Numbered from the stretch's first letter, positions 7,150 to 21,577 are shown. The stretch: 64,000 nucleotides of DNA from an uncultured Gemmatimonadaceae bacterium (GCA_963790305.1 CAWBOC010000009.1:480001-544000), one strand, 5' to 3'. Made by a program: numbers and translations. Notes: generated by a model not told the origin, from the letters alone.

Positions 7150-7467
7150 GTGGCGTATCGGGAGTTCGCGGACGACGTTGGTACGATATGGCGGGTCTGG
7201 GACACGCATCCAGTCGCCGCCAACACGCTGCGCACCGTGTCTCCCCGCTACGCAGGCGGGTGGCTCACGTTCGAGTCCGAGAGCGAGTTGCGCCGACTGG
7301 CGCCAATCCCGGCCGGGTGGGTGATCGCGACCCGGGATCTCATGATCCATTGGTGCGCCCGCGCGCTGGTTGCCCGCGCCCCCAACCCGGAGCGGCCTTC
7401 GGGAAGCACCGGGGGCTTCGGGGGCGCAACGGGCCCGGACGCTAGATCTCCCAGTTCGACCAGATAA
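7150..7467 (+). CDS. Small hypothetical protein
   Basis: GGAGG RBS + GTG; Trp-rich REFADDVGTIWRVWD...GWLTFES...RRLAPIPAGW. Confidence 0.7.
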   Translation: MAYREFADDVGTIWRVWDTHPVAANTLRTVSPRYAGGWLTFESESELRRLAPIPAGWVIATRDLMIHWCARALVARAPNPERPSGSTGGFGGATGPDARSPSSTR

Positions 7468-8416
7468 CGCCGCGCTGCGGCGGTCGCTCGGGCATGTCGG
7501 CGAGCGTCATCCTCAGGTCTGTCCAACGCACGCGGGCGCCGAGGTCGATCAGTCGTTGGTAGGCACCCAGGAAATCGGTTTGAACGCGCAGCGCCACCCG
7601 TCGCGTCCCGCTCCGGCGCGAGTAGTCGATCAGCACGTCCGCCAACCGTTTGAGATCCTCCTCGCGCTCGAGCGCGAGCTTGAGGACGCGCATCTCTTCG
7701 CGCACGCGACCCTCCACCAGCGGTGCCGTGTGGCAGAGCGCGAACCCGACCAGACGACCCCGGTCGCGCAGCAGCACGGTATCGCCTAACGCGAGCTGAT
7801 CGGTGAGCACGATCTCGCGAGTGAAATCGAAGCCGGGCGCGAGGCGGTTGGTCAGCCCGCGGCACTCATCGATCGCCTCCTCCTTGTCGCGTGGGGACAG
7901 ACGCCCGAGGAGGTGCGGACCGTTTCCGAGCAGACCCGCTTCGAGAGTAAGCGTGATCGTGAGACGGCCGGGAACGAAGCCAAGGGCCGAGTAGAAGCCA
8001 ATGTTGTCCATGGTGCGCGGCATCGTCTCCAACCCGATCGTGGCCGCCCGGCCGTCGCGGAGCCAGTCAACGCCGCCCCGGACGATCTCCTTCCCCAGTC
8101 CGACGCCTTGCCAGTCCGGGCGAACGGCGAGTGGCCCCATCCATCCCTCGACACCGGACCGGTGCGCGATGTTGAACGCTACAATCTCCTCACGCTCGTC
8201 GCGCCAAACGAGCGCCCCACCGTCGGCATCCTCGATCGCGTAGCGCCAGATCGCCGGATTGAGGAAGGGCACGCGTACGCCCACCATGCCGTCGCGGCGA
8301 TATCGCTCGCTGAAGGCATCGCTGAAGACCTGATTGAGCCCGCCAATGTCGTCCAGGCTCGCGGGCTGCGGCCCGTCGGCCTGCTCATGGGTTCGCCACG
8401 TGCGCGCGGTCGCCAT
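7442..8416 (-). CDS. GNAT family N-acetyltransferase (probably tandem fold)
   Basis: Acetyl-CoA motif LAVRPDWQGVGLGK and NIGFYSALGF; TGATG overlap with rad50. Confidence 0.85.
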   Translation of the reverse strand: MATARTWRTHEQADGPQPASLDDIGGLNQVFSDAFSERYRRDGMVGVRVPFLNPAIWRYAIEDADGGALVWRDEREEIVAFNIAHRSGVEGWMGPLAVRPDWQGVGLGKEIVRGGVDWLRDGRAATIGLETMPRTMDNIGFYSALGFVPGRLTITLTLEAGLLGNGPHLLGRLSPRDKEEAIDECRGLTNRLAPGFDFTREIVLTDQLALGDTVLLRDRGRLVGFALCHTAPLVEGRVREEMRVLKLALEREEDLKRLADVLIDYSRRSGTRRVALRVQTDFLGAYQRLIDLGARVRWTDLRMTLADMPERPPQRGVIWSNWEI

Positions 8417-10887
8417 CAGTCGCCGGCCTCCGCCTCCTCGTACACCTCGTCACCTACGACCGACGGTGTGAAGAGGTCGGGCAGCTCCGCGGTCTGCTGC
8501 TCGACCACCGAGCACCCCGTTTCCTCGTCGTAGCGAACGGAGATCACGCGATCAACACCCTCGCGCACCTGCTCGATGTGCGTGATGAGAATGACCTGCT
8601 CGAAACGGCCCTGGAGGCGTCGCAGCAGGTCGAGCACATTCGCGCGGCGGGCCTCGTCGAGTGATCCGAAGATCTCGTCGAGAATGAGCAGGGAGAAGGG
8701 CTGGCCCGCACGCTCGGCGATCATCTGCGAGATCGCGAGACGAAGCACGAGGTTCGCAAGGTCCTCTTCACCGCCCGAGATGACCGGCTTCGGCAGCCCG
8801 TCCTCGAGCACGACGATGTTGTAGCTATCGTCGAGCTCGAGCTCACCGTAGCGGCCGTCGGTGAGATCCCTCAGGAAGCCACTGGCGAGGTCGGACAGCT
8901 CCGGACGCAACTGGAAGTTGAGGTCGGTACGCAGATCGGTGAACGCGCGGTCGAGCTCGTCATGCAGCAGCTTTCGCTGTGTGAGCTCGCTGAGCATGCG
9001 CTGGCGCGACGCGAGCTCGGCCGCCACTCCGTGCGCACGCTCGAGGGCCGTATGCGCGCTCCCCTCCTCGCCTCGCGCCTGCACCATCGCGAGCTCCGCG
9101 GCGTGCGCCTCGCCGGTCGCCCGCTCGAACTCCGCGCGCAGCGTCTCATGTTCCGACTCACGGATCGTCGTCTCGTCGCGCCGCCCGTGCAGCAGTCGGA
9201 GCCGTTCACGAATCGCCGCGAGTCGCTCGGCCGCCCCGGCGAGCTCACGCTCGACCTGCGGCACGCGCTCCAGCTGCGCGCTCAGCCGGGCGGCGCGCGC
9301 ATCGAGCGGGGTGAGACGCTCGATCTCGCTGCGCAGCAGCCCGTGGCGAGCTGCATCGTACCCCGGTGGAATCGCGGTGAGCTCCGCGTTCACCTGGGCC
9401 GCACGTTCGTTCTTGCCAGTCAGATCGGACTCGACGTGCGCGAGCTCCTGTACCGCGAGCTGTACCTTCGTCAGGCGGCGCTCGAGCGTGGAGACCTCGA
9501 GCGACATGGCACGCCGTTGCTCGTCGAGCGCCTGCACATCCTCGGGCATCTCCATGAGCTGCTCGAAGCGCGCCTTGTAGTAGTTGCCGTCGACGCGCAC
9601 CGTCTCGATCTGCTCATCGAGAAGATCGAGCACCGCGCGATACGTATCGCCCAGCGGGCGAGCGCAGGTGGGACACGCGCCCTCGGCGCCGAGGCTGACG
9701 ATGCGGTCGCGCTGCTCCTTGAGCTCCGTGTACTGTTCGCGCAGCGACTGCCGCTTCGTCTCTGCTTCCTGGCGGTCGCGCACCCACTCGGTGCGACGCG
9801 CCTCGAGAAGGCCGTCGGTGGCTTCGAACTCGGCGCGTTTCGCGACCAGGGCGGCATCGATCTCCGTCTCGAGGGTGGGCGCGTTCTCGAGCTTCGCGCG
9901 CCGATCACGCAGCCGAACGAGATCCTCGGCGAGAGCGCCTTGCGTCTCGAGTAGCGCGCGTCGGCGTCCTTCTTCCCGCGCGAGGACATCGAGCCGCTGA
10001 AATTCCGATGCGAGCAGTTGGAACGGCTCCAGCTCGAGGCGCAGCCGCTCCAATTCCGCGCGCGCACCCGCCGCGTCGGCGAGATCCCGCTCGAGACGCT
10101 GCACCTCGCGATGCTCAGCCGCCTCCTCCTGCTCCGCGACGCGCAGGTCGGCGAGCAGCGCCTGATGTGCCTCACGAGCGCGCTGCGCCGCCTCCCACCG
10201 CGGCCGCACCTCGTCGAGCGCCGCCTGAGTCGCCTCGCGCCGTCGCTGGGCGAAACGGGCACGATCGCGCGCCTGCTCCAGGCGCGTCTCCGTCTCCGCC
10301 ACCTGGCGGGCGACGGTCTCGGGATCCCCCATGCCCTGCCGGAGCCCCGCCATCTCGGCGACGATGGCACGGCGCCGGTCGCGCGCGATCTCCTGCGCCG
10401 CGCGCAGCCGCTCGTAGCCCAGCACTCGCGAGAGAAACTGCGCGCGCTCGGTCGGGCTCATCGCGGCCATCACGCTGATCTCTTTCTGGCCGGTGAAATA
10501 CGTGTTGAAGAATTCCTCGCGCGTCATGCCAAGACGGCGCGTGAGGACGTCCGTCACTCCGGTGATCGAGTCAGCGATCTTGTTCTGGGGGCCATCGAGG
10601 TACAGCTCCGCGTTCGTCAGGCCGCGAACGACGCGATAGTTGTGACCGCCGAGGTCGAAGTCGAGCTCGACGCGCACACCCGAGCGCGCGCCAGCCCGGT
10701 TGAAGCGAATGGAGTCACGGGTGCCCCGGGCCGCGGCGTTGCCGTAAATCGCCCACGCAATCGCTTCGAGGAGGGTCGTCTTCCCGGCTCCGTTGGGGCC
10801 GATGATGCCGGTAACCCCCGGACCGAACTCCACCCGGCTATCCGCGTGCTGGCGGAAGTTCTGGAGGACGACCCGGTTGAGCTGCAC
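8416..10887 (-). CDS. sbcC: Rad50/SbcC SMC-family ATPase
   Basis: Walker A GPNGAGKTT, coiled coils, central zinc hook CPTC, signature SGGE, Walker B LLILDE, D-loop GSLD, ITH. Confidence 0.93.
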   Translation of the reverse strand: MQLNRVVLQNFRQHADSRVEFGPGVTGIIGPNGAGKTTLLEAIAWAIYGNAAARGTRDSIRFNRAGARSGVRVELDFDLGGHNYRVVRGLTNAELYLDGPQNKIADSITGVTDVLTRRLGMTREEFFNTYFTGQKEISVMAAMSPTERAQFLSRVLGYERLRAAQEIARDRRRAIVAEMAGLRQGMGDPETVARQVAETETRLEQARDRARFAQRRREATQAALDEVRPRWEAAQRAREAHQALLADLRVAEQEEAAEHREVQRLERDLADAAGARAELERLRLELEPFQLLASEFQRLDVLAREEGRRRALLETQGALAEDLVRLRDRRAKLENAPTLETEIDAALVAKRAEFEATDGLLEARRTEWVRDRQEAETKRQSLREQYTELKEQRDRIVSLGAEGACPTCARPLGDTYRAVLDLLDEQIETVRVDGNYYKARFEQLMEMPEDVQALDEQRRAMSLEVSTLERRLTKVQLAVQELAHVESDLTGKNERAAQVNAELTAIPPGYDAARHGLLRSEIERLTPLDARAARLSAQLERVPQVERELAGAAERLAAIRERLRLLHGRRDETTIRESEHETLRAEFERATGEAHAAELAMVQARGEEGSAHTALERAHGVAAELASRQRMLSELTQRKLLHDELDRAFTDLRTDLNFQLRPELSDLASGFLRDLTDGRYGELELDDSYNIVVLEDGLPKPVISGGEEDLANLVLRLAISQMIAERAGQPFSLLILDEIFGSLDEARRANVLDLLRRLQGRFEQVILITHIEQVREGVDRVISVRYDEETGCSVVEQQTAELPDLFTPSVVGDEVYEEAEAGD

Positions 10888-12087
10888 CTAGCCCCCGAGT
10901 GTCGGCGGGGAGCCGGCGGACGCCACGCTGGCGGCCGCGTCCGCCTCCTGCAGATAGAAAGTCCCGAGCTGAACGAGCGCGTCACGATCGACGCCCGGCG
11001 CGAGGGTGCGCTTGCCGATGTACGACTCCACCGTCTCCCGAAGCGTGGGACGACGGCCGGGCGCCCCGCTGGCGGCGAGCCGCATCATCTCCGGCCGCCG
11101 AGCGTCGAGGTGAAAGTGCAGCGCGCGTCGCTTGTACTCGCGTAACGCCTTTTGATCCAGCTCCCGAGCGACATGGCGCGGGATGTCGCGCACGACGAGT
11201 CGTACGACCTTCTCCTCAATGCCGTCCTCGCATTTCTCGACCGCGTCGCGGATGGCGGTATCGAGCTCCTGCGCGGTCAGGCCGCGCGCCGGAACGGCCG
11301 GCAGGTCCACGAGCCGACGCGCGGGATCGAGCGCATGGAACGTGTGGACCCCGCGCTCGAGATCGAACTCGATGAAGCCCTTTCCCGGGAGACCACCTAT
11401 CCGCTCCTCGATCAGCTCGCCCCACGGATTCGTGCTCGTGTAGTCGACGGAGCCGGAGTAGTAGGCATTCGGCGCGATCTGCCGATGTACGTGGTAGTGT
11501 CCCAGCGCGACGTAGCTCCACCGGGACGCCCCGATGGCGTCCAGCGGGATCTCCATCGCCGCGCGATCGGCGCGCACGGCCTCGGCGGGAAGCATGCCCT
11601 GCACTTCCCCATGCAGCACGAGAACGTTGTGCCTAACGCCTGGCTCCGGGATCAGCGCCGGGTAGTCACCCAGGGAATCGGGAACGGCGAGAATCGCGAG
11701 ATCCCGCTCGGGGAAGGCGAGGCGTCGCGGCTCGGAATCGACGACGTGCACTCCCAGCACCGTGAACAGGCGCAGAATGCACCCCGTCTCGGTCGCGCGC
11801 GGACGGTCGTGGTTGCCCGCCACCATGACGACGATCGCCCGCGGAACCGCGCGGGTCAGCCGCGCGAGCTGATTGAACGCGTGGATGATCGCCGGATTCA
11901 TCGGGCGAACGGTGTGGAAAATATCCCCCGCGAACACGACGACGTCGGGCTCGAGGGCGATGATCCGGTCGATCGCGCTCCGAAAAGCGTTCGCGACGTC
12001 CGCTTCGCGCTGATTGATTCCCGATTGCGTCAGACGGTGGTACTGACGGAAACCGAGATGCAGGTCGGAGATGTGAACCAGCCGCAC
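10888..12087 (-). CDS. sbcD: Mre11/SbcD metallophosphoesterase nuclease
   Basis: HISDLHLG, AGDIFH, AGNHD, LHG, ALGHYH, YSGS; stop abuts the rad50 start. Confidence 0.93.
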   Translation of the reverse strand: MRLVHISDLHLGFRQYHRLTQSGINQREADVANAFRSAIDRIIALEPDVVVFAGDIFHTVRPMNPAIIHAFNQLARLTRAVPRAIVVMVAGNHDRPRATETGCILRLFTVLGVHVVDSEPRRLAFPERDLAILAVPDSLGDYPALIPEPGVRHNVLVLHGEVQGMLPAEAVRADRAAMEIPLDAIGASRWSYVALGHYHVHRQIAPNAYYSGSVDYTSTNPWGELIEERIGGLPGKGFIEFDLERGVHTFHALDPARRLVDLPAVPARGLTAQELDTAIRDAVEKCEDGIEEKVVRLVVRDIPRHVARELDQKALREYKRRALHFHLDARRPEMMRLAASGAPGRRPTLRETVESYIGKRTLAPGVDRDALVQLGTFYLQEADAAASVASAGSPPTLGG

Positions 12088-12145
12088 GCCATCCTCAGGG
12101 AAAATTCTGCTAACTGTAATACTCCTAAGAGGATAGCGAGTGCGC

Positions 12146-12991
12146 TCACCGCTTGTCCATAGTGCGCTGCCGCTGCAGCAGGCGCATCTGCATCTTCACC
12201 GGCTGGAGCCCACTTCCCGGGGGTTGCTCAATGTGCGAGCGCATTGACATCTCGGTCGAGGCGTCGGTCACCCAGCCGCGGCTCCGGTCCAGGACCATGT
12301 AGCCGGTTACTGTCCCCGTCATCGTCATGCGGGCCCCGCCCCGAATCGGCGCGGCGGTCGAATCGCGCGTGAGGGTGCCGCGCATCGAAATGTGGGCCAG
12401 CTTCCCGCGCCGAGTCAGCGAGTCGAGGCGGAAGGTGGCCTCGAGAGTGCCCGCGACCTGCCCCGGCCCCGCGTCAGGGATGGGGATGCGTTGCTTCCAC
12501 GAGCTCCCGACGGCGACCTGGTGCCGGGGGAACGTGGCGGGGAGCTGCGAGAACACCGACTGGAGGTCGCGCGGGATGTCCGGGTCCGCCTCGACGACGG
12601 TGCCGGAACCTTCGCGCGAGAACCGTACACGAACCTCCTTTCCCTGCAGCGAACGACGAGCCTGATCGCTGAGCGTGGCAACGCGGGGGTCCATGGCGGC
12701 CATGTCCACGGCGACCGAGTCGGTGATCGACCGAACCGTGGTTCCCTCGTTGTCCGACTCGATGACGATGGACCGGGACAGCATGAGCATGGACGAGCGC
12801 ATGGTCATCGTCGTGTCGGCATCGCGAACCTTGCCGACGCCCGAGATCTCCATTTCCTGCTCGATGCGCAGCCGGAGCGTATCGCCCACCTTCGGCTTGA
12901 TCTGCAGCAGCACGCTCTGCGCCTGCGCCGAGGGAACGACCGACCCGATGAGTGCGACCGAGGCGGCGAAGCGCCTCACGAGAGTGATCAT
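12146..12991 (-). CDS. Exported beta-rich hypothetical protein (possibly DUF6263-like)
   Basis: Signal peptide ending AQA; FPRHQVAVGSSW motif; starts 3 nt after the herA stop. Confidence 0.65.
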   Translation of the reverse strand: MITLVRRFAASVALIGSVVPSAQAQSVLLQIKPKVGDTLRLRIEQEMEISGVGKVRDADTTMTMRSSMLMLSRSIVIESDNEGTTVRSITDSVAVDMAAMDPRVATLSDQARRSLQGKEVRVRFSREGSGTVVEADPDIPRDLQSVFSQLPATFPRHQVAVGSSWKQRIPIPDAGPGQVAGTLEATFRLDSLTRRGKLAHISMRGTLTRDSTAAPIRGGARMTMTGTVTGYMVLDRSRGWVTDASTEMSMRSHIEQPPGSGLQPVKMQMRLLQRQRTMDKR

Positions 12992-12994
12992 GCG

Positions 12995-14959
12995 CTACAC
13001 GCCGTACGGATCATCGGCCGGCAGTCCGCGCAACGGAGTCGCCGCGACGGGCGTCGGAGCCGGCTGGGCCGGGATGATCGTGCGGAGTCTCGACGCGAAG
13101 AAGGCCTTCACGTCCTTCGGTCGCGACTGGAGCGTCGCGTTGCGCGCGCGAATGAGGTCCGGCTCATCGTAGAGCGCGACCATATCCTGCACCCACGTGA
13201 GCGGGATCCCCGGGTCGAGCTGCCGCAGCGTACGCAACAGCAATGTCTCGAGCGAGGCGTCGGTCGCCTGCGGAAAGCGCTCGACGCCATCCCGCCCCCG
13301 CAGCACGGCGGGCCTCGGGAACTTCAGGAAAATCGGTTGCGTGAAGTGCGGATGTCGCACCATCAAATCTCCCTTGGCGAGCGTAGCCAGCTTCGTTCGC
13401 GTTGCCGGGCTGAGTACGGCGTAGCCAGGCGTGGCCAGCTCGTCTCCATCCATGCGTCCGAACAATGACGTGCCGCTGTTACCGACGACGCGGCGATGGA
13501 CCTGCGACCGGAACTGCTGCGCCCCGAACAGGACGAGCCCGAGATATCGGCCGCGCTCGGCGATATCGAGCAGCATCTTGCGCACGTAGGTGTCGGGGCC
13601 ATCGGCCGGGGCGTATTTGTTCAGCTCGTCGACGAACACGACGACGTGGCTGACGCCGAGATCACGCCGCTCGAGGTGCTCACGGAGCTTGGACACGATG
13701 CGCGCGAAGATGAGATCCTGCGCGTCCTCCTCGGCGGCGGCGACGTCAATCACATACACCGTGCGATCGTCGAAGGTCCCCCATGGAAGGTCGCTCACCG
13801 AGCCATCGTCAGTGACCAGTCCAGCGCATCGCAGCGAAATATTGGAAAGCCGGTTGCGCACCTTCCGAATGGTCGCGATGTGATGCGTCTTGTAGCCCTC
13901 GCTTCCCTTCCCCTCCAGCATCAGGATGATGTCGCGAAACCACCGCTCGAGGTCGGCGAAGGACTGTACGCGGTAAACCTGCCCGGGCAGCATCTGGGGA
14001 TCCTTGTACTCGCGATCGAGCAAGCGCTCCTTGATGAAATCGATGAGCGCGTCCGCCTTGGCATCGACGTCATCCCGATTCAGCATGACTTCGGCGAACT
14101 GCAGGACTTCGCGCAGCCCCCACGTCAGCGGGCTGACGTTATGCATCAACGCCTCGTTCGAGCGCAACGTGTTCAGCGACGTCAGGTTCGCCTTGTAGGG
14201 CGCGAAATAGTGCACGCGATCGAAGGGCCGTGCCGGGACGCGGAGGCGGTCGTACATCGCGAGATCGTTGGCGTCGAGGTCTCCCGGCTGGTCCAGATAG
14301 CAGAGATCCGGTCCCTTCACGTTGAAGCACACCGCGGCCACCGAGCCCTTGCTGGCGGGGAAGTGCGCGAACATCGATGCGAGAATGAACTCGACCGCGC
14401 TCGTCTTCGTCGCCAGGCCGGACACGCCGGTGATGTTGAGGTGCGCCGCCTCGGGTCCAACGAGAAAGTCGGCGTCGAGATAGATCGGCGAATCCATGCC
14501 GCCCGCGCGATAGAGCCCGATGGGAATCGCCGTTCGCGCGTCGGCGCGCGTATACGTGTCCATGCGCAAAGCCAGCGTCACGTCCTCATCGCTGGCCAGG
14601 AAAACCTCTCCCATCGGAACGGGCTGAAGCGGTTCCTCGGGTATCTGCCGCAGCACGGCGGCCGTGTAGAGGCGCACTTCCGGCCGCTCCGTCGGTGCGA
14701 TCGCGGATGAGCGTGGATCACCGTCATGGCCGAGCACGTCGTGCAGCGGAGAGAGCAGGTCGGTGAAGCTGAAGCCTTCGACGACGACGCCGTACACGCG
14801 CGGAAGATGTCCCTCGACGGCGTGCGTTCCCTCGACGCGCACAATGGTCCCGATCCCGACCGGGGAGTCGACCGCGGTCCAGAAATGGAACTCGTGAGGC
14901 GTGTTTGGCTTGCGCTCGGTCGCGACGACGCGGCCGAGGGGTGACGTGTGCTCAGGCAT
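12995..14959 (-). CDS. herA: HerA-family hexameric ATPase / DNA translocase
   Basis: N-terminal HAS-barrel-like region, variant Walker A HLNITGVSGLATKTS (Deinococcus/Thermus HerA type), Walker B VVFVDELNKYAP, IAERGRYLG, GAQQ. Confidence 0.88.
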   Translation of the reverse strand: MPEHTSPLGRVVATERKPNTPHEFHFWTAVDSPVGIGTIVRVEGTHAVEGHLPRVYGVVVEGFSFTDLLSPLHDVLGHDGDPRSSAIAPTERPEVRLYTAAVLRQIPEEPLQPVPMGEVFLASDEDVTLALRMDTYTRADARTAIPIGLYRAGGMDSPIYLDADFLVGPEAAHLNITGVSGLATKTSAVEFILASMFAHFPASKGSVAAVCFNVKGPDLCYLDQPGDLDANDLAMYDRLRVPARPFDRVHYFAPYKANLTSLNTLRSNEALMHNVSPLTWGLREVLQFAEVMLNRDDVDAKADALIDFIKERLLDREYKDPQMLPGQVYRVQSFADLERWFRDIILMLEGKGSEGYKTHHIATIRKVRNRLSNISLRCAGLVTDDGSVSDLPWGTFDDRTVYVIDVAAAEEDAQDLIFARIVSKLREHLERRDLGVSHVVVFVDELNKYAPADGPDTYVRKMLLDIAERGRYLGLVLFGAQQFRSQVHRRVVGNSGTSLFGRMDGDELATPGYAVLSPATRTKLATLAKGDLMVRHPHFTQPIFLKFPRPAVLRGRDGVERFPQATDASLETLLLRTLRQLDPGIPLTWVQDMVALYDEPDLIRARNATLQSRPKDVKAFFASRLRTIIPAQPAPTPVAATPLRGLPADDPYGV

Positions 14960-15046
14960 TCAACTCTCGGTGTTCAACGCAGAATTGAGAACACAGAATA
15001 GAGAGTTCAGCAGTGTCGTTTCTGAGTTCTGTATTCCGAATTCCGT
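14960..15046. repeat. Inverted degenerate 7-mer repeat array
   Basis: gcagaat tgagaac acagaat agagagt ... tttctga gttctgt attccga attccgt, AT-richer than flanks. Confidence 0.6.
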
Positions 15047-15061
15047 CATCGTTGCCGTTCT

Positions 15062-16060
15062 TCAGGAAATTGCACGCAGGAACTCCTCGCACTCTCGAAC
15101 CGGGTACGCCATACGGTCCCACCGGGAATCGGGAAGCGCCAGTGGCGTACGCTCGGCGAGCACCCAGCGCGACACCTCATCGGCACGCGTGGACGGGTCG
15201 TCGGTCTCAGCCACCTCGACGCGCACGATACCCCACAGCGCGTCGTGCGCGTCGCCGTCACGAAGGCGCAGGTACCAGGAGTGCACCGGCGTCCGGTTGC
15301 GAGGGGCAATGCGAACGACGGGAGTTCGCTCTCCACAGGCCAAGCCGAGAATCACGTCGAGGAGTACCGCGGACGCATAGAGTTGACGGTGTGATTTCAC
15401 TACGCCCACCGCACAGCTGTTGGTCGCGACGATATCGCTTGCGGAGATGCTGCCGTCCACGAGCAGCGGCGCTCGCATCGTCGCACACCATTGCTCGGCC
15501 AACGTGCGTTCGGCGCGCTCGCGATCGCGCTGCACGGCGTGCAGCGCTTGCTCCTTGACGTGGACTGGATGACGCGAGAGAGCTGCGTCCTCCTCGGCGC
15601 GAGAGGTGTCCACGACGGGTAGACCGGCAAGAGCGAGACGCGTAGCCGAATCCAGCGTCGAGAGCGGCGCATAGTACCGATACTCGTCGATAGGACGTTC
15701 CCAGGTGGTGAGCCGCCGCTTCGATCGCTGCCGTATCACGGCGGCGATGCGGCCGCAGACGATGGGAACTCCGCGCGCGACCAGAACGACTCGACTCTCC
15801 TGAACGCCGTCGAGAAATGCCTCGAACGCCGGGATCGGAGACCCCGGTACGCGGCGCGCCACGGTTGCATTTTCAACGACTTGCGCGTCTATGACCCGGG
15901 GTGCCTCATGAACACCCTCGAGCCGCTCGAGCGTGGGTGCCGTGCTAGTGACGGTGGCAACGCCGGGCACGCGATGCGCGAGGATGCGCACCGCGTCGTG
16001 GAAAGTTGCCACGGGTATGGCGGGGGGGTAGGTTGCTCGCTGCCTCTGCTCCACTGCCAC
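15062..16060 (-). CDS. nurA: NurA-family nuclease (RNase H-like fold)
   Basis: AFLDG, LLVDGS, VGVVKSH, GERTP, SWYLRL, GIVRVE and C-terminal D-x-R...YPV..CE motifs; directly upstream of herA. Confidence 0.75.
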   Translation of the reverse strand: MAVEQRQRATYPPAIPVATFHDAVRILAHRVPGVATVTSTAPTLERLEGVHEAPRVIDAQVVENATVARRVPGSPIPAFEAFLDGVQESRVVLVARGVPIVCGRIAAVIRQRSKRRLTTWERPIDEYRYYAPLSTLDSATRLALAGLPVVDTSRAEEDAALSRHPVHVKEQALHAVQRDRERAERTLAEQWCATMRAPLLVDGSISASDIVATNSCAVGVVKSHRQLYASAVLLDVILGLACGERTPVVRIAPRNRTPVHSWYLRLRDGDAHDALWGIVRVEVAETDDPSTRADEVSRWVLAERTPLALPDSRWDRMAYPVRECEEFLRAIS

Positions 16061-16123
16061 GTCTCAGGTCCCGCCGATCGGCCGCCTTCGGCAGCCGTGC
16101 TCTCGTCTTACTTCCGCGAGTTG

Positions 16124-17104
16124 ATGCGCGCGTTCGTCATCCAGCGAATCGCCACGCTGGTGACCATCGTAACGGTGGTTACCGGGTGTGACAAGGCGAA
16201 AGGATTCATTGGCGGAGATCGACCGGCGCCCCCGGAGATCGCGCCCGGTGAGGCCCTCAATCTCGCCGCGCGTCCCCACATCCTCTTCCAGATCTTCGGG
16301 GAGAAGGAAGATCCGCGGATGATCCCCATCGCCGCCATCGAGGACGGGCAGCTGAAGGCGATCGCCCTGTCGTCGACCGGCTGGCACCAGTTCGACGCCA
16401 TGTACCTGCGGGGCGGCAAGACCTACAAGCTGTACCAGGACGGACGTACACGAGGCACGGTGACGGTCCGCCAGGGTATGTGGGAACGGCCTGAGAATCC
16501 GCTGTATACGCTTCCCGGCTGTCAGGCCCTCACGCCACTGGCCAGCGTCTCGGTCACCGGCTTGACGAAGTCCTCCTATACCGTCGAAGCGCTCGCGTCA
16601 TCGTTCGATCGTTCGGCCCCGCGTGCACCCAAGCCCCTTCCCGACGCGGAGCTGGCGAGGACCGGCCGCAAAGTCGCCACGGAAGCAGGCGCTCCCGAGA
16701 GCGTGGACGGGAAGATGCTCGACGCTCTCGACTTCCGCGCCGTGGCCATCAACACCGGCGCCACCGATTCGCCAACGATCGTCGCATCGTACATCGATCC
16801 GACGGCCACCGACGCCGGCTCGGCGACGGCCAACACGGTGCACCTGTTCGTGATCGCCGACCGCGACGTCGACGGCTATACCCCGACGATGTCGCACGTG
16901 GTGAACGGTCCGATCGCCGGCGCGGTGTATCGTCGATTCTTCGACCACGTGGATCTCACCGGCGACGGCATCGATGAGATCGTGGCCGAGGAGTGGCGGA
17001 TCGGGCAGGAGACGTCGTTGCTGGTATTCTCCTGGATGAACGGGAGATGGAGAGAGGTATTCCGGGGGCGGTCGAGTTGGTGCCTCGATGAAGTGAAACA
17101 ATAG
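16124..17104 (+). CDS. Hypothetical lipoprotein with FG-GAP/VCBS-like motif
   Basis: MRAFVIQRIATLVTIVTVVTG-C lipobox; DLTGDGIDEIV motif. Confidence 0.7.
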   Translation: MRAFVIQRIATLVTIVTVVTGCDKAKGFIGGDRPAPPEIAPGEALNLAARPHILFQIFGEKEDPRMIPIAAIEDGQLKAIALSSTGWHQFDAMYLRGGKTYKLYQDGRTRGTVTVRQGMWERPENPLYTLPGCQALTPLASVSVTGLTKSSYTVEALASSFDRSAPRAPKPLPDAELARTGRKVATEAGAPESVDGKMLDALDFRAVAINTGATDSPTIVASYIDPTATDAGSATANTVHLFVIADRDVDGYTPTMSHVVNGPIAGAVYRRFFDHVDLTGDGIDEIVAEEWRIGQETSLLVFSWMNGRWREVFRGRSSWCLDEVKQ

Positions 17105-18701: not shown

Positions 18702-19920
18702 TCATCGGTGGGTCTCGCGCCAGAGACTCACGAGACGGCGCGTCCCTTCGACGACAGCGTCGATTGGCGCGGCGTATGACATCCGCACCCATCCGGGGGT
18801 GAAAAAGGCCGACCCGGGGACGATCGCGACTTCGTGGGCTTCGAGCAGCCGCTGCGCGAATCGCGCTCCCTCGTCGCGGGCGGGGTCGTCCGACCCGACA
18901 TGCGCGAACAGGTAGAACGCGCCTTCGGGATCGACGATCTCCATGCCGGGCTCGGCGCGCACCACCTCGACTACCGCATCCCGCCGCCGGCGAAACTCGG
19001 CCACCATCGTTCTCACGGACGCGTCTGCAGCCTCACGATTCGTGAGCGCGGCAAGCGCAGCGTGCTGAGACGGCGCCGCCGCGTTCGATGTCGTGTGCGA
19101 TTGAAACGCGGTCATCGCCGCTGCCAGCTCCCGGGGGGCGATGGCCCACCCGATCCGCCATCCGGTCATCGCGTAGGCCTTCGCGACGCCGTCGATCAGC
19201 ACCAGACGATCGAGCGATGGCGCAACCTCGAGCGCCAATGTCGCTGGCTCCGTGCCGTACGCGATCGCCCGGTAGATCTCGTCGCTGATCACCCACCACC
19301 CGTGCTCATGGGCGCACTCGAGCAGCGCTGCGAGCTCCTCGCGCGAATAGACCGCCCCGGTTGGATTGCACGGTGAGTTCAGCATCACGCCGCGCGTTCG
19401 TGGTGTCGATGCCGCTTCGAGCATCAATGGAGTGACCTTGAGCCCCGCGTTGGCATCGCCGTACACGGGGACCGCCGTCGCGCGCGCCAGCGCAACCATC
19501 TCCGTAATAGCTCGTCCAGCTGGGTGTGGGGATGAGCACCTCATCCCCTTCCCCGAAGAGACAGAAGCAGGCGTTGAACAGGGATTGCTTCGAGCCGGTC
19601 GACACGACGACCTGCCCCGCTCCGACTTCGGCGCCGACCTCGGCGGCGCGGCGTGCGATCGCATCACGAAGGGGCAGAATGCCTTCGGTGGCCGTGTAGC
19701 GCGTCGCCCCAGCGTCGATCGCACTCTGCGCCGCTCGGCGAATGAACTCAGGTGTATCGAAGTCCGGCTCGCCGGCGCCCAGGTCGATGACCGGACGTCC
19801 GGCGGCGCGAAGCGCTTTGGCTCGCGCCGAGACCGCGATCGTCGCGGACTCGCGAAGCTGGGCGACGTTCGCGGAGGGGTCGAAGGCGCGATTGCTGTGA
19901 GGTCGTGCGAGCAACGTCAT
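18702..19920 (-). CDS. PLP-dependent aspartate aminotransferase (class I/II), +1 frameshift near 19502
   Basis: DLGAGEPDFDTP, STGSKQ, NSPCNPTG, ISDEIY, AKAYAMTGWRIG, split over two frames. Confidence 0.9.
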
Positions 19921-19999
19921 GCGGGCGGTGGAGGAAGGTGAGGGGCGAGTATACTTTACATCCCAGGTCGCGGGCACGCCATTGACAACGGAGGCACCG

Positions 20000-21577
20000 G
20001 TGGAGCAGCACGGGCGAATTGCGGAGCATGAGGAGCGCGAGACGGCGAGCGTGGGACGCAGCCAGAACGTCGTGCACATCCTCCCGCACGATATGGCCTC
20101 TGCCGCAGGAGTGCTCACCACGGTGCTCGAGCGGCTCGACCGCGAGACGCCAGAGCTGCAGGTTCTTCTGCTGGCTCCGGATCCAGAAGCGGCCATATCT
20201 CTCGCACGGGCCGTCTCGTCCCTGCCGCAGGCCGCTGGCCTTCGCGTCATCCCCGCCTCGAGCGCACGCCGCGCAACGCGCCTCCTTCGCGCCCGACCGA
20301 CACATGGGGTGATCGGCGCACCGACCGAGCTCCTGGAGCTGGTCAGGACATCGGTGCTCAAGCTCGAGCACGTCCGCGCATTGGTGCTCGCCTGGGTCGA
20401 CGAGATCGTCGATGACGCCGCGTCCCGAGAGGCGCTGGAGGCAGTGCTCGCCGAAGTTCCGAAGGACGCTGCCCGAACGATCATCGCATCGCGCCAGACG
20501 CCGGAGGTGGAGCAGCTCATCGAACGGTATGCGCGTCGCGCGCGGCGCGCGGGCGACGCGAAGACCGACGCCGTGGCGACGCCTATCCGCTACGTCTCGA
20601 GCTCTGCCTGGGGACGGCTCCCCACACTGCAGCGAGTGCTGGACGAGCTCGATCCCGAAGTCGCCGCCGTCTTCACTCGCTCGGAATCGACGGAGCGCGA
20701 GCTGCGCCAGCTTCTGGAGTCACTGGGGCACGTGGGCGATGACGCCGGCGTACGCGTGACGCGTGGGGCTCCGGTGATCGAGGCGGACACGATCATACTT
20801 CTGGACATCCCGACTCGTGAAGAGTTGCGCGCAGTGATGGGCGGAGCGACCCCCGCCGTCGTCGCGATCGTGCAGCCCCGACAGCTCGATACAGTGCGGT
20901 CGCTTGCGGGTGGCGCGCCCGTGACGCCGCTCCGCGCCTCGGGGGCAGCGGGCCGCGCTCGGAAGCGCGTCGCCGCACTCCGCTCGGAGCTGCGTGATGT
21001 TCTCGCGAGCGGAATTCCAACGCACGAGCTTCTGGCGCTCGAGCCGCTTCTCGATGAGTACGACGGCGTCGAGGTGGCGGCGGCCGCCCTGCGTCTGTTG
21101 GAGCGCGCGCGGTCGACTGAGGTCGTCCGCGCGACGGCCCCCGCCCCGGCGGCGGTCACTGCAGCGCCCGCGGGCGGCTGGACGCGCATTTTCGTCGGTG
21201 CGGGCACGCGCGACCGAGTGGGGCCTGGCGACCTCGTCGGCGCCATCACCGGCGAGGCAGGAGTGACGCGTGAGAGCATCGGAAAGATCGAGCTGCGCGA
21301 GAATCATTCGCTGGTGGAGATCGCGACCGCGGATGCCGAGCGGGTGGCTGGTGCCCTGACTGGAACCATGCTTCGTGGACGACGGGTGATCGCACGATTG
21401 GACAAGGGCCGCGAGGCGAGAGGAGAGCGAGGTGATCGCGGAGGGCGACCGGGCGGCTCCCGATCCGAGCGTGGGGAGCGCGGGCCACGCGATCGCGGGG
21501 ATCGCCCTGATCGCGGCCCTCGTCGCGTGCGCGGCGATGTGGAACGGCACCGCCCTCGGACCACCGACGCGGAGTAG
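20000..21577 (+). CDS. Degenerate DEAD-box helicase-like protein with DbpA RNA-binding domain
   Basis: Eroded helicase motifs; intact IFVGAGTRDRVGPGDLVGAITGEAGV...IGKIELRENHSLVEI DbpA domain; R/G/D-rich tail; GGAGG + GTG start. Confidence 0.8.
   Translation: MEQHGRIAEHEERETASVGRSQNVVHILPHDMASAAGVLTTVLERLDRETPELQVLLLAPDPEAAISLARAVSSLPQAAGLRVIPASSARRATRLLRARPTHGVIGAPTELLELVRTSVLKLEHVRALVLAWVDEIVDDAASREALEAVLAEVPKDAARTIIASRQTPEVEQLIERYARRARRAGDAKTDAVATPIRYVSSSAWGRLPTLQRVLDELDPEVAAVFTRSESTERELRQLLESLGHVGDDAGVRVTRGAPVIEADTIILLDIPTREELRAVMGGATPAVVAIVQPRQLDTVRSLAGGAPVTPLRASGAAGRARKRVAALRSELRDVLASGIPTHELLALEPLLDEYDGVEVAAAALRLLERARSTEVVRATAPAPAAVTAAPAGGWTRIFVGAGTRDRVGPGDLVGAITGEAGVTRESIGKIELRENHSLVEIATADAERVAGALTGTMLRGRRVIARLDKGREARGERGDRGGRPGGSRSERGERGPRDRGDRPDRGPRRVRGDVERHRPRTTDAE

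What the first reader, a model, noticed from the sequence alone, without database searches (positions are those of the whole stretch)
7442..16060. Complete archaeal-style NurA-HerA-Mre11-Rad50 end-resection module in one bacterial locus
Seen: six co-oriented minus-strand genes, nurA-like, herA, exported protein, mre11/sbcD, rad50/sbcC and GNAT, with 0-102 nt spacers. Catalytic motifs look intact (HerA Walker A/B, Mre11 metal motifs, Rad50 hook CPTC and signature). Established: herA, nurA, mre11 and rad50 form one operon in thermophilic archaea, where they resect double-strand breaks. Bacterial HerA/NurA (Deinococcus, Thermus) have mostly been studied apart from SbcCD. Inference: this lineage may use an archaeal-like resection pathway instead of, or alongside, RecBCD/AddAB, and I know of no functional description of it in this group. 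The nurA assignment is the weakest link.
Basis: partly seen in the sequence, partly recalled or inferred. Interest (0 to 1): 0.82.

Follow-up and report, generated by a model that had tools for sequence, protein, structure and literature searches.

The report
Order-wide NurA-HerA-Mre11-Rad50 cluster, AddAB mostly lost
This bacterium and most of its order carry intact genes for four DNA-end-processing proteins side by side, and in most of them the usual bacterial break-chewing enzymes (RecBCD/AddAB) were not found, so the cluster likely helps to process broken DNA ends; similar clusters occur in other bacteria, and the two gene pairs can likely work apart.

Summary
The six genes are real and intact. 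The weak link holds: the 15062-16060 model matches NurA structures best (Foldseek E 8e-13; Z 18.5/17.6) with catalytic residues kept. NurA and HerA are Deinococcus-type; only Mre11/Rad50 score best against archaeal profiles. In 105 genomes of the order: herA 95, nurA 82, rad50 103, mre11 104, GNAT 105; nurA, herA and rad50 share one locus in 75 of 80. The site is fixed and inherited vertically. This genome and 8 of 8 congeners show no AddAB/RecB nuclease; 24 of 105 in the order have AddAB or RecC, against 42 of 46 outside. HerA's NurA-binding barrel relaxes where nurA was lost (9 of 9 pairs). Against one obligate machine: mre11 often has its own promoter-like signal, Mre11-Rad50 is unchanged without HerA, 14 genomes lack both NurA and AddAB/RecC, and RecJ is near-universal. 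Not unique: Oceanithermus is a published precedent, 40 of 42 full-flank loci (mostly Actinomycetota) hold all four genes, and this scan found the cluster before in three other Gemmatimonadota genomes. New member of a known kind.

The parts
15062..16060 (-). nurA: bacterial (Deinococcus/Thermotoga-type) NurA nuclease, RNase H-like fold, 332 aa; motif I FLDG (D84), motif II LVDG (D202), K222, R313, E325
12995..14959 (-). herA: Deinococcus-type HerA ATPase/translocase, 654 aa; N-terminal HAS barrel (about 5-135), Walker A K185/T186, Walker B D444/E445
   Evidence: HAS relaxation without nurA
12146..12991 (-). DUF6263 protein, 281 aa, signal-peptide-like N-terminus (read by eye); a likely passenger, found in 28 of 48 related loci
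12088..12145 (-). 58-nt AT-richer spacer before mre11; relatives often carry a -10/-35-like signal just upstream of the mre11 start; in this window only a chance-level sigma70-like match (12159-12130)
10888..12087 (-). mre11/sbcD metallophosphoesterase, 399 aa, five metal motifs intact
8416..10887 (-). rad50/sbcC SMC-like ATPase, 823 aa, central zinc hook CPTC (405-408)
7442..8416 (-). GNAT acetyltransferase, 324 aa, start overlaps the rad50 stop; in 105 of 105 genomes of the order; substrate unknown

Best explanation
The locus is a chromosomal, order-wide cluster of two intact DNA-end-processing modules, a Deinococcus-type NurA-HerA pair and an Mre11-Rad50 pair, which likely act on the same broken DNA ends as a dispensable helper to RecJ/RecQ/RecFOR in a lineage that likely lost AddAB many times. 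Shown here: gene identities, intact catalytic residues, conserved linkage at a fixed site, a Rad50 tree that follows the families, no AddAB/RecBC hit in this genome, and relaxation of HerA's HAS barrel where nurA is lost. Inferred from homologues: Mre11-Rad50 would bind, bridge and clean blocked ends; a HerA hexamer would pump the duplex through a NurA dimer docked on its HAS barrels, trimming mainly the 5' strand; RecFOR would load RecA on the 3' tail. The modules are likely not obligatory partners: mre11-rad50-GNAT is likely its own transcription unit in many relatives and survives without herA, and HerA's motor is kept without NurA. The GNAT and DUF6263 genes are likely passengers.
For: NurA fold: top Foldseek hits D. 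radiodurans NurA 7f6d (E 7.9e-13), T. maritima 1zup, S. solfataricus 2ygk; VIA Z 18.5 (rmsd 3.5, 248 aligned) and 17.6 (4.0, 264), first non-NurA row 8.2. K222 aligns with the catalytic drNurA K201. HerA profile matches drHerA at E 7e-140. Linkage: nurA next to herA in 78 of 81, herA within 12 kb upstream of rad50 in 92 of 94. Fixed housekeeping flanks: aspC in 52, DEAD helicase in 49, folE in 42 of 65 related loci; Rad50 tree keeps the three families as clades at 100% local support. No PF12705, RecC or RecD2 hit in the genome; AddA/AddB of relatives hit only the three UvrD-like loci; 0 of 8 congeners have PF12705. One AddA clade follows the taxonomy from outer class to this order, which fits repeated loss. 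HAS identity 0.74 without nurA against 0.89 with it, ATPase core 0.87-0.91 against 0.91-0.93; excess loss in 9 of 9 pairs, centred on H73/D74/D79, the loop region that matches drHerA's NurA-binding D78/E80/D81 (register uncertain). HerA kept without NurA beside mre11 in 14 genomes recalls the HerA-Mre11-Rad50 co-precipitation without NurA in S. acidocaldarius (PMC2288612).
Against: No direct evidence that the two pairs cooperate: Mre11 and Rad50 show no relaxed segment in 6 pairs with and without herA. TAnnnT lies 4-10 nt before the mre11 start in 18 of 63 loci against 0 of 65 for rad50, and opposite-strand genes separate herA from mre11 in 7 of 54 loci. 14 of 105 genomes have neither NurA nor an AddAB/RecC hit, and 15 of 82 with NurA also have AddAB or RecC. 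The sister family f7 carries another version of the cluster (12 of 16) and PF12705 in 16 of 16, and 5 of 5 other cluster-bearing genomes have it too. In Deinococcus and Thermus, nurA/herA deletions give modest or improved resistance, and the authors doubt an efficient role in vivo (PMC9960219). T. kodakarensis HerA-NurA cuts both strands (PMC12977600 abstract).
Confidence: 0.47

Rival explanations
1. The two pairs are long-standing neighbours with separate jobs: Mre11-Rad50 acts like SbcCD on hairpins and blocked ends, RecJ/RecQ does the resection, and NurA-HerA only modulates or competes with it, as proposed for Deinococcus.
For: RecJ in 103 of 105 genomes of the order; RecQ, RecO, RecR and RecF hits in this genome; own promoter-like signal before mre11; loss order rad50 103 > herA 95 > nurA 82; no Mre11/Rad50 change without HerA; Deinococcus data (PMC9960219; PMC4663267 abstract).
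Against: The same four genes cluster again, in another order and with HerA only about 30% identical, in 40 of 42 full-flank loci of mostly Actinomycetota and in archaea; repeated clustering is hard to explain by chance neighbourhood. In several relatives herA and mre11 lie 3-20 nt apart.
Confidence: 0.33
2. The cluster mainly destroys linear foreign DNA (phage or incoming DNA), taking over the degradative role of RecBCD/AddAB rather than the repair role.
For: T. kodakarensis HerA-NurA cleaves both strands and is proposed to be antiviral (PMC12977600 abstract); a 2026 review states this for bacterial NurA-HerA (PMC13748450); TdpAB is among the fold matches; genomes without NurA more often have AddAB/RecC (9 of 23 against 15 of 82, Fisher p 0.049, kin not independent).
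Against: No defence-island signs: fixed housekeeping flanks, family-following Rad50 tree, host-like GC, no tRNA in the window, no PADLOC model for NurA, only 6 distant HerA matches among 72,556 plasmid records.
Confidence: 0.15
3. HerA serves as a chromosome-segregation or DNA-export pump of the FtsK kind, and the nucleases are accessory.
For: HerA's ATPase core stays conserved without NurA; the idea is cited for archaea in PMC2288612.
Against: The genome has its own FtsK; herA was not found in 10 of 105 genomes of the order, nor in 4 of 4 further genomes of family f3.
Confidence: 0.05

Closest known systems
Deinococcus radiodurans NurA-HerA (PDB 7F6D, 7WRW, 7WRX; PMC9960219)
   Same: Best sequence and fold match of both proteins; Walker A/B and K201 equivalents kept; nurA directly before herA; host without RecBC/AddAB and with RecJ/RecQ/RecFOR.
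   Different: Here mre11 and rad50 follow herA in the same cluster; HerA is 654 aa with a longer C-terminus; nurA is lost in about nine separate lineages while herA stays.
Archaeal herA-mre11-rad50-nurA operon (Sulfolobales, Thermococcales; PMC13748450, PMC2288612)
   Same: The same four families in one co-oriented cluster; Rad50 and Mre11 score best against archaeal NCBIfam or PDB Rad50/Mre11 entries; Rad50 of 823 aa with a CPTC hook.
   Different: Order nurA-herA-X-mre11-rad50-GNAT; NurA/HerA are bacterial-type (no archaeal HerA at E<0.01); all profile scores lie far below the equivalog cut-offs; likely internal promoter; dispensable in many genomes.
Oceanithermus profundus nurA-hepA-sbcD-sbcC (Blesa et al. 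2017, PMC5448004)
   Same: Published bacterial case with sbcD and sbcC downstream of hepA, the same order as here.
   Different: One thermophile, no functional work in the section read; here an order-wide, vertically kept cluster with GNAT and DUF6263 genes.
herA-mre11-rad50-nurA clusters of Actinomycetota and Longimicrobiales (found here)
   Same: All four families in one co-oriented cluster.
   Different: Sulfolobales-like order, HerA about 30% identical to this one, no GNAT, and AddAB/AdnAB-type nuclease hits in 5 of 5 genomes tested.

Membership tests
NurA nuclease family | RNase H-like NurA fold | tested here: met
   AlphaFold model pLDDT 81.6; the five best VIA rows are NurA or NurA-like chains, Z 18.5-9.1; Foldseek E 7.9e-13 to 7f6d
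NurA nuclease family | Two DG motifs plus conserved basic catalytic residues | tested here: met
   D84 in 51 of 54, D202 54 of 54, K222 52 of 54, R313 54 of 54 rows; K222 aligns with drNurA K201; D84=D53 and R313=R309 are inferred from motif position
NurA nuclease family | Pfam PF09376 match | tested here: inconclusive
   No hit for the window protein at E 0.1; a distant homologue from L084 reaches the cut-off (21.3 bits)
NurA nuclease family | Mn-dependent nuclease activity, toroidal dimer | not testable with these tools
   needs biochemistry
HerA (FtsK-HerA ASCE ATPase) | HAS barrel plus RecA-like core with Walker A/B | tested here: met
   Profile match to drHerA over 4-570, E 7e-140; K185, T186, D218, D444, E445 in 61 of 61 rows
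NurA-HerA complex | NurA binds the HerA HAS barrels (2:6) | tested here: inconclusive
   Indirect support only: HAS relaxation in 9 of 9 nurA-loss pairs; no complex model was obtained
Mre11/SbcD-Rad50/SbcC | Five metallophosphoesterase motifs; Walker A, Q-loop, CxxC hook, signature, Walker B, H-loop; adjacent genes | tested here: met
   genes abut
Archaeal herA-mre11-rad50-nurA resection operon | All four genes in one co-oriented cluster | tested here: met
Archaeal herA-mre11-rad50-nurA resection operon | Archaeal-type NurA and HerA sequences | tested here: not met
   Only the Deinococcus chains match by sequence
Archaeal herA-mre11-rad50-nurA resection operon | One polycistronic transcript | tested here: inconclusive
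   Short spacers here, but promoter-like signal before mre11 in 18 of 63 loci and opposite-strand inserts in 7 of 54; no RNA data
Archaeal herA-mre11-rad50-nurA resection operon | Mre11-Rad50 cooperates with HerA-NurA to make 3' tails | not testable with these tools
   Sequence proxy negative; needs biochemistry or genetics
Anti-phage defence systems with HerA or SMC ATPases (PADLOC) | Match to a system's component set and defence-island context | tested here: not met
   Only general ATPase or phosphoesterase similarity, none for NurA or GNAT; fixed housekeeping flanks

The most novel reading that the evidence does not exclude
Gemmatimonadales are a whole bacterial order that swapped AddAB for a chimeric four-protein resectosome (bacterial-type NurA-HerA plus archaeal-like Mre11-Rad50) as the main route of double-strand-break resection, with HerA-Mre11-Rad50 as the stable core, NurA an exchangeable nuclease cap, and the universally linked GNAT a possible acetylation switch on Rad50.
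Probability: 0.18. Interest if true: 0.78.

Novelty: new member of a known kind. Interest (0 to 1): 0.42.

Why it matters
What NurA-HerA does in cells is disputed: resection with Mre11-Rad50, a brake on RecJ, or destruction of viral DNA (PMC9960219, PMC4663267, PMC12977600). A 2026 review says bacterial nurA has no stable four-gene clustering (PMC13748450); contradict that for two large bacterial groups. An order that keeps the cluster vertically, mostly lacks RecBCD/AddAB, and offers natural losses of nurA alone, of nurA plus herA, and of AddAB is a natural experiment for this question; cultured members exist (recalled: Gemmatimonas, Gemmatirosa). The arrangement itself is not a surprise to a specialist.

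Tried and rejected
HerA-Mre11 complex prediction: the queue was full and no job ran, so physical contact between the pairs stays untested. Naming the nearest non-Gemmatimonadota HerA relatives was not possible, so the donor of this HerA stays open. Pfam and NCBIfam do not detect this NurA or HerA. A weak profile hit to phenol hydroxylase P2 (E 0.011) was set aside as chance. Test for relaxed Mre11, Rad50 or GNAT segments without herA: none in 5-6 pairs. Sigma70 scan of the window: 2 sites against 1.1 +/- 1.0 expected, not significant. Mobile element: rejected. GNAT as an obligatory Rad50 partner: not supported, since three genomes outside the order have this Rad50 without a GNAT hit; the Atlas gave only generic GNAT clusters. 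Constantinesco 2004 and Iyer 2004 are not held; I recall that they mention bacterial members, so further precedent may exist. Literature searches with no paper on this cluster in Gemmatimonadota: (open-licence PMC and bioRxiv only; supplements not read).

Full report
Observation. The six minus-strand ORFs are present and uninterrupted, with spacers of 102, 3, 58 and 0 nt and a one-base rad50/GNAT overlap. The genome is 94% complete.

Identities. 15062-16060: no Pfam or NCBIfam family, but its only significant PDB sequence match is D. radiodurans NurA (E 6e-4; profile 6e-5). A model from 66 of the 120 listed homologues (pLDDT 81.6) matches 7f6d, 1zup and 2ygk best by Foldseek; by VIA-align the five best rows are NurA or NurA-like chains (Z 18.5, 17.6, 13.6, 12.3, 9.1) and the next family starts at 8.2. 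Both DG motifs described in PMC13748450 (passages) are kept, and K222 aligns with drNurA K201, whose mutation abolishes activity. 12995-14959 matches only Deinococcus HerA (E 5e-43; profile 7e-140). Mre11 and Rad50 carry all motifs; Rad50 scores best with the archaeal Rad50 model PRK03918 (E 3e-63 against 2e-29 for SbcC TIGR00618) and Mre11 about equally with TIGR00619 and archaeal models, all below cut-off; PDB hits are led by Rad50/Mre11 entries that I recall as Methanocaldococcus and Pyrococcus. So the cluster joins a bacterial-type NurA-HerA to an archaeal-like Mre11-Rad50. 12146-12991 is DUF6263 and 7442-8416 a GNAT.

Conservation. The same 151 genomes of the phylum were searched with each gene. 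Among the 105 of the order: herA 95, nurA 82, rad50 103, GNAT 105, mre11 104. nurA lies upstream of herA in 78 of 81, herA within 12 kb upstream of rad50 in 92 of 94, GNAT within 3 kb after rad50 in 97 of 103, and nurA, herA and rad50 are in one locus in 75 of 80; the nurA-herA and herA-rad50 exceptions fall on different contigs. I fetched 60 of the 109 herA loci: of 48 with this HerA type, 41 have nurA, 47 mre11 and rad50, 46 GNAT and 28 the DUF6263 gene. Flanks are fixed housekeeping genes, kept even where nurA and herA are gone, and a 64-row Rad50 tree (FastTree) keeps families f1, f2 and f3 as clades. This is vertical inheritance, not a mobile island.

Other bacteria. Twelve of 16 genomes of family f7 have a HerA about 30% identical with nurA, and 11 of these 12 loci also have mre11 and rad50. 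With one such HerA as query, 80 of 584 confirmed loci were kept, mostly Actinomycetota; 61 of 80, and 40 of the 42 with full flanks, hold all four genes, nearly always as herA-mre11-rad50-nurA. Blesa et al. describe sbcD and sbcC downstream of hepA in Oceanithermus profundus (PMC5448004, section 3.1 read). The 2026 review's statement that bacterial nurA lacks stable four-gene clustering (PMC13748450, passages and section 'Genomic context') does not hold for these groups. Earlier notes of this scan report the same cluster in three other Gemmatimonadota genomes.

RecBCD/AddAB. This genome has no PF12705, RecC or RecD2 match; its three UvrD-family loci are the only places hit by AddA-type queries, and AddB-type queries hit nothing; 0 of 8 congeners have PF12705. 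Across the sample PF12705 rings in 34 of 105 genomes of the order and 46 of 46 outside. Counting hits under E 1e-20 or a RecC hit: 24 of 105 against 42 of 46 (my count); 11 genomes of the order with weak hits were counted as lacking. Pfam confirms AddA/AddB architecture for two of these gene pairs. A quick tree of 17 AddA/RecB-type rows (from 20 loci; L140, L142 and L143 left out; the careful search did not finish) has one clade nested f10, f7, then f3/f2/f1 at 99-100% and a second, separate clade; this fits an ancestral AddAB lost repeatedly. Genomes without NurA have AddAB/RecC more often (9 of 23 against 15 of 82; p 0.049, kin not independent). Family f3 shows no herA or nurA in 6 of 6 genomes and strong PF12705 hits in 3 of 6. 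Against replacement: 14 genomes have neither NurA nor AddAB/RecC, f7 has PF12705 in 16 of 16, and 5 of 5 other cluster-bearing genomes have it. RecJ is found in 103 of 105; this genome has recJ (in three frames), two RecQ, RecO, RecR, RecF, two Ku and FtsK matches.

Do the parts work together? NurA-HerA: in 13 loci from genomes that kept herA without nurA (about nine separate losses on the Rad50 tree), identity to conserved columns falls to 0.74 in the HAS barrel against 0.89 in 20 NurA-bearing rows, while the core stays at 0.87-0.91 against 0.91-0.93. With a reference from 32 other rows the excess loss is positive in 9 of 9 pairs (sign test p 0.004; pairs picked by me from the tree, some from unresolved forks). 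The most relaxed sites (H73, D74, D79, T90, R92) lie in the loop region that aligns, with uncertain register, with the NurA-binding D78/E80/D81 of drHerA. This supports a Deinococcus-like complex and a NurA-independent use of the motor. Pair with pair: the same test finds no relaxed segment in Mre11 or Rad50 in 6 pairs with and without herA. TAnnnT ends 4-10 nt before the mre11 start in 18 of 63 loci, against 0 of 65 for rad50, 3 of 43 for herA, 2 of 48 for GNAT and 1.3% background; a looser pattern chosen after seeing the data gives 28 of 63, 12 with a -35-like TT[GA], against 0 of 65 (background 8% and 0.2%). The window itself is not among these hits. Opposite-strand genes lie between herA and mre11 in 7 of 54 loci (rough gene calls). 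So mre11-rad50-GNAT is likely a unit of its own.

Mechanism. Inferred from homologues: Mre11-Rad50 binds and cleans ends, HerA pumps duplex through NurA and removes mainly the 5' strand (PMC9960219, Background, section 7, Conclusions and passages read), and RecFOR loads RecA. The same paper doubts that drNurA-HerA is an efficient resection complex in vivo; HerA stimulates and NurA inhibits RecJ in Deinococcus (PMC4663267, abstract); T. kodakarensis HerA-NurA cuts both strands (PMC12977600, abstract); HerA co-precipitates with Mre11-Rad50 in S. acidocaldarius (PMC2288612, passages). Passages of PMC4641729, PMC11143384 and PMC10783764 were seen and add only that NurA/HerA are known from a few bacteria. 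No supplements were read. I put 0.47 on a dispensable joint helper in end processing, 0.33 on separate modules, 0.15 on foreign-DNA destruction and 0.05 on a segregation pump.

Verdict. A real, intact, order-wide cluster; a new member of a known kind with published bacterial precedent. Interest 0.42.

Noticed in passing
G000:C6:453389-454989 (L124/L125); window 3282-4580/3943-4503, 4957-5502/5267-5974, 18702-20520; G000:C13:171208-171832: Several housekeeping genes (recJ in three frames, Na/Ca exchanger, a likely NAD-dependent epimerase, a likely aminotransferase, ftsK) appear split by frameshifts; likely assembly indels rather than pseudogenes, since recJ is whole in nearly all relatives.
   Followed up: partly
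window 7442-8416: This GNAT is in 105 of 105 genomes of the order and has no close match in 46 outside it (one weak hit, E 6e-13): a clean order marker of unknown substrate.
   Followed up: partly
L033:1435-3729 (G000:C2:120873 onward): UvrD-like helicase that seems fused to a DnaQ-like 3'-5' exonuclease domain (read by eye; not scanned).
   Followed up: no
L143:5135-8617 (G040): 1160-aa fusion of an IrrE-like peptidase M78 domain, a UvrD helicase and a PD-(D/E)XK nuclease.
   Followed up: no
L082-L093 (family f7): Two orders of a distant four-gene cluster (herA-mre11-rad50-nurA and nurA-herA-mre11-rad50); one HerA is 60-70% identical to actinobacterial ones, which suggests transfer. Some f7 genomes have a second mre11-like gene beside a Rad50-like coiled-coil gene (L243, L244).
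   Followed up: partly
window 15881-17104 (+): Divergent ORF upstream of nurA without a Pfam family, lipoprotein-like by eye; recurs at this place in 11 of the 20 loci L034-L053.
   Followed up: no
G067, G091, G092, G136, G140: Five genomes of this family carry RecC; two of them lack nurA and herA.
   Followed up: partly
G001, G004: No RecF match in 2 of 2 genomes of family f2 tested.
   Followed up: no
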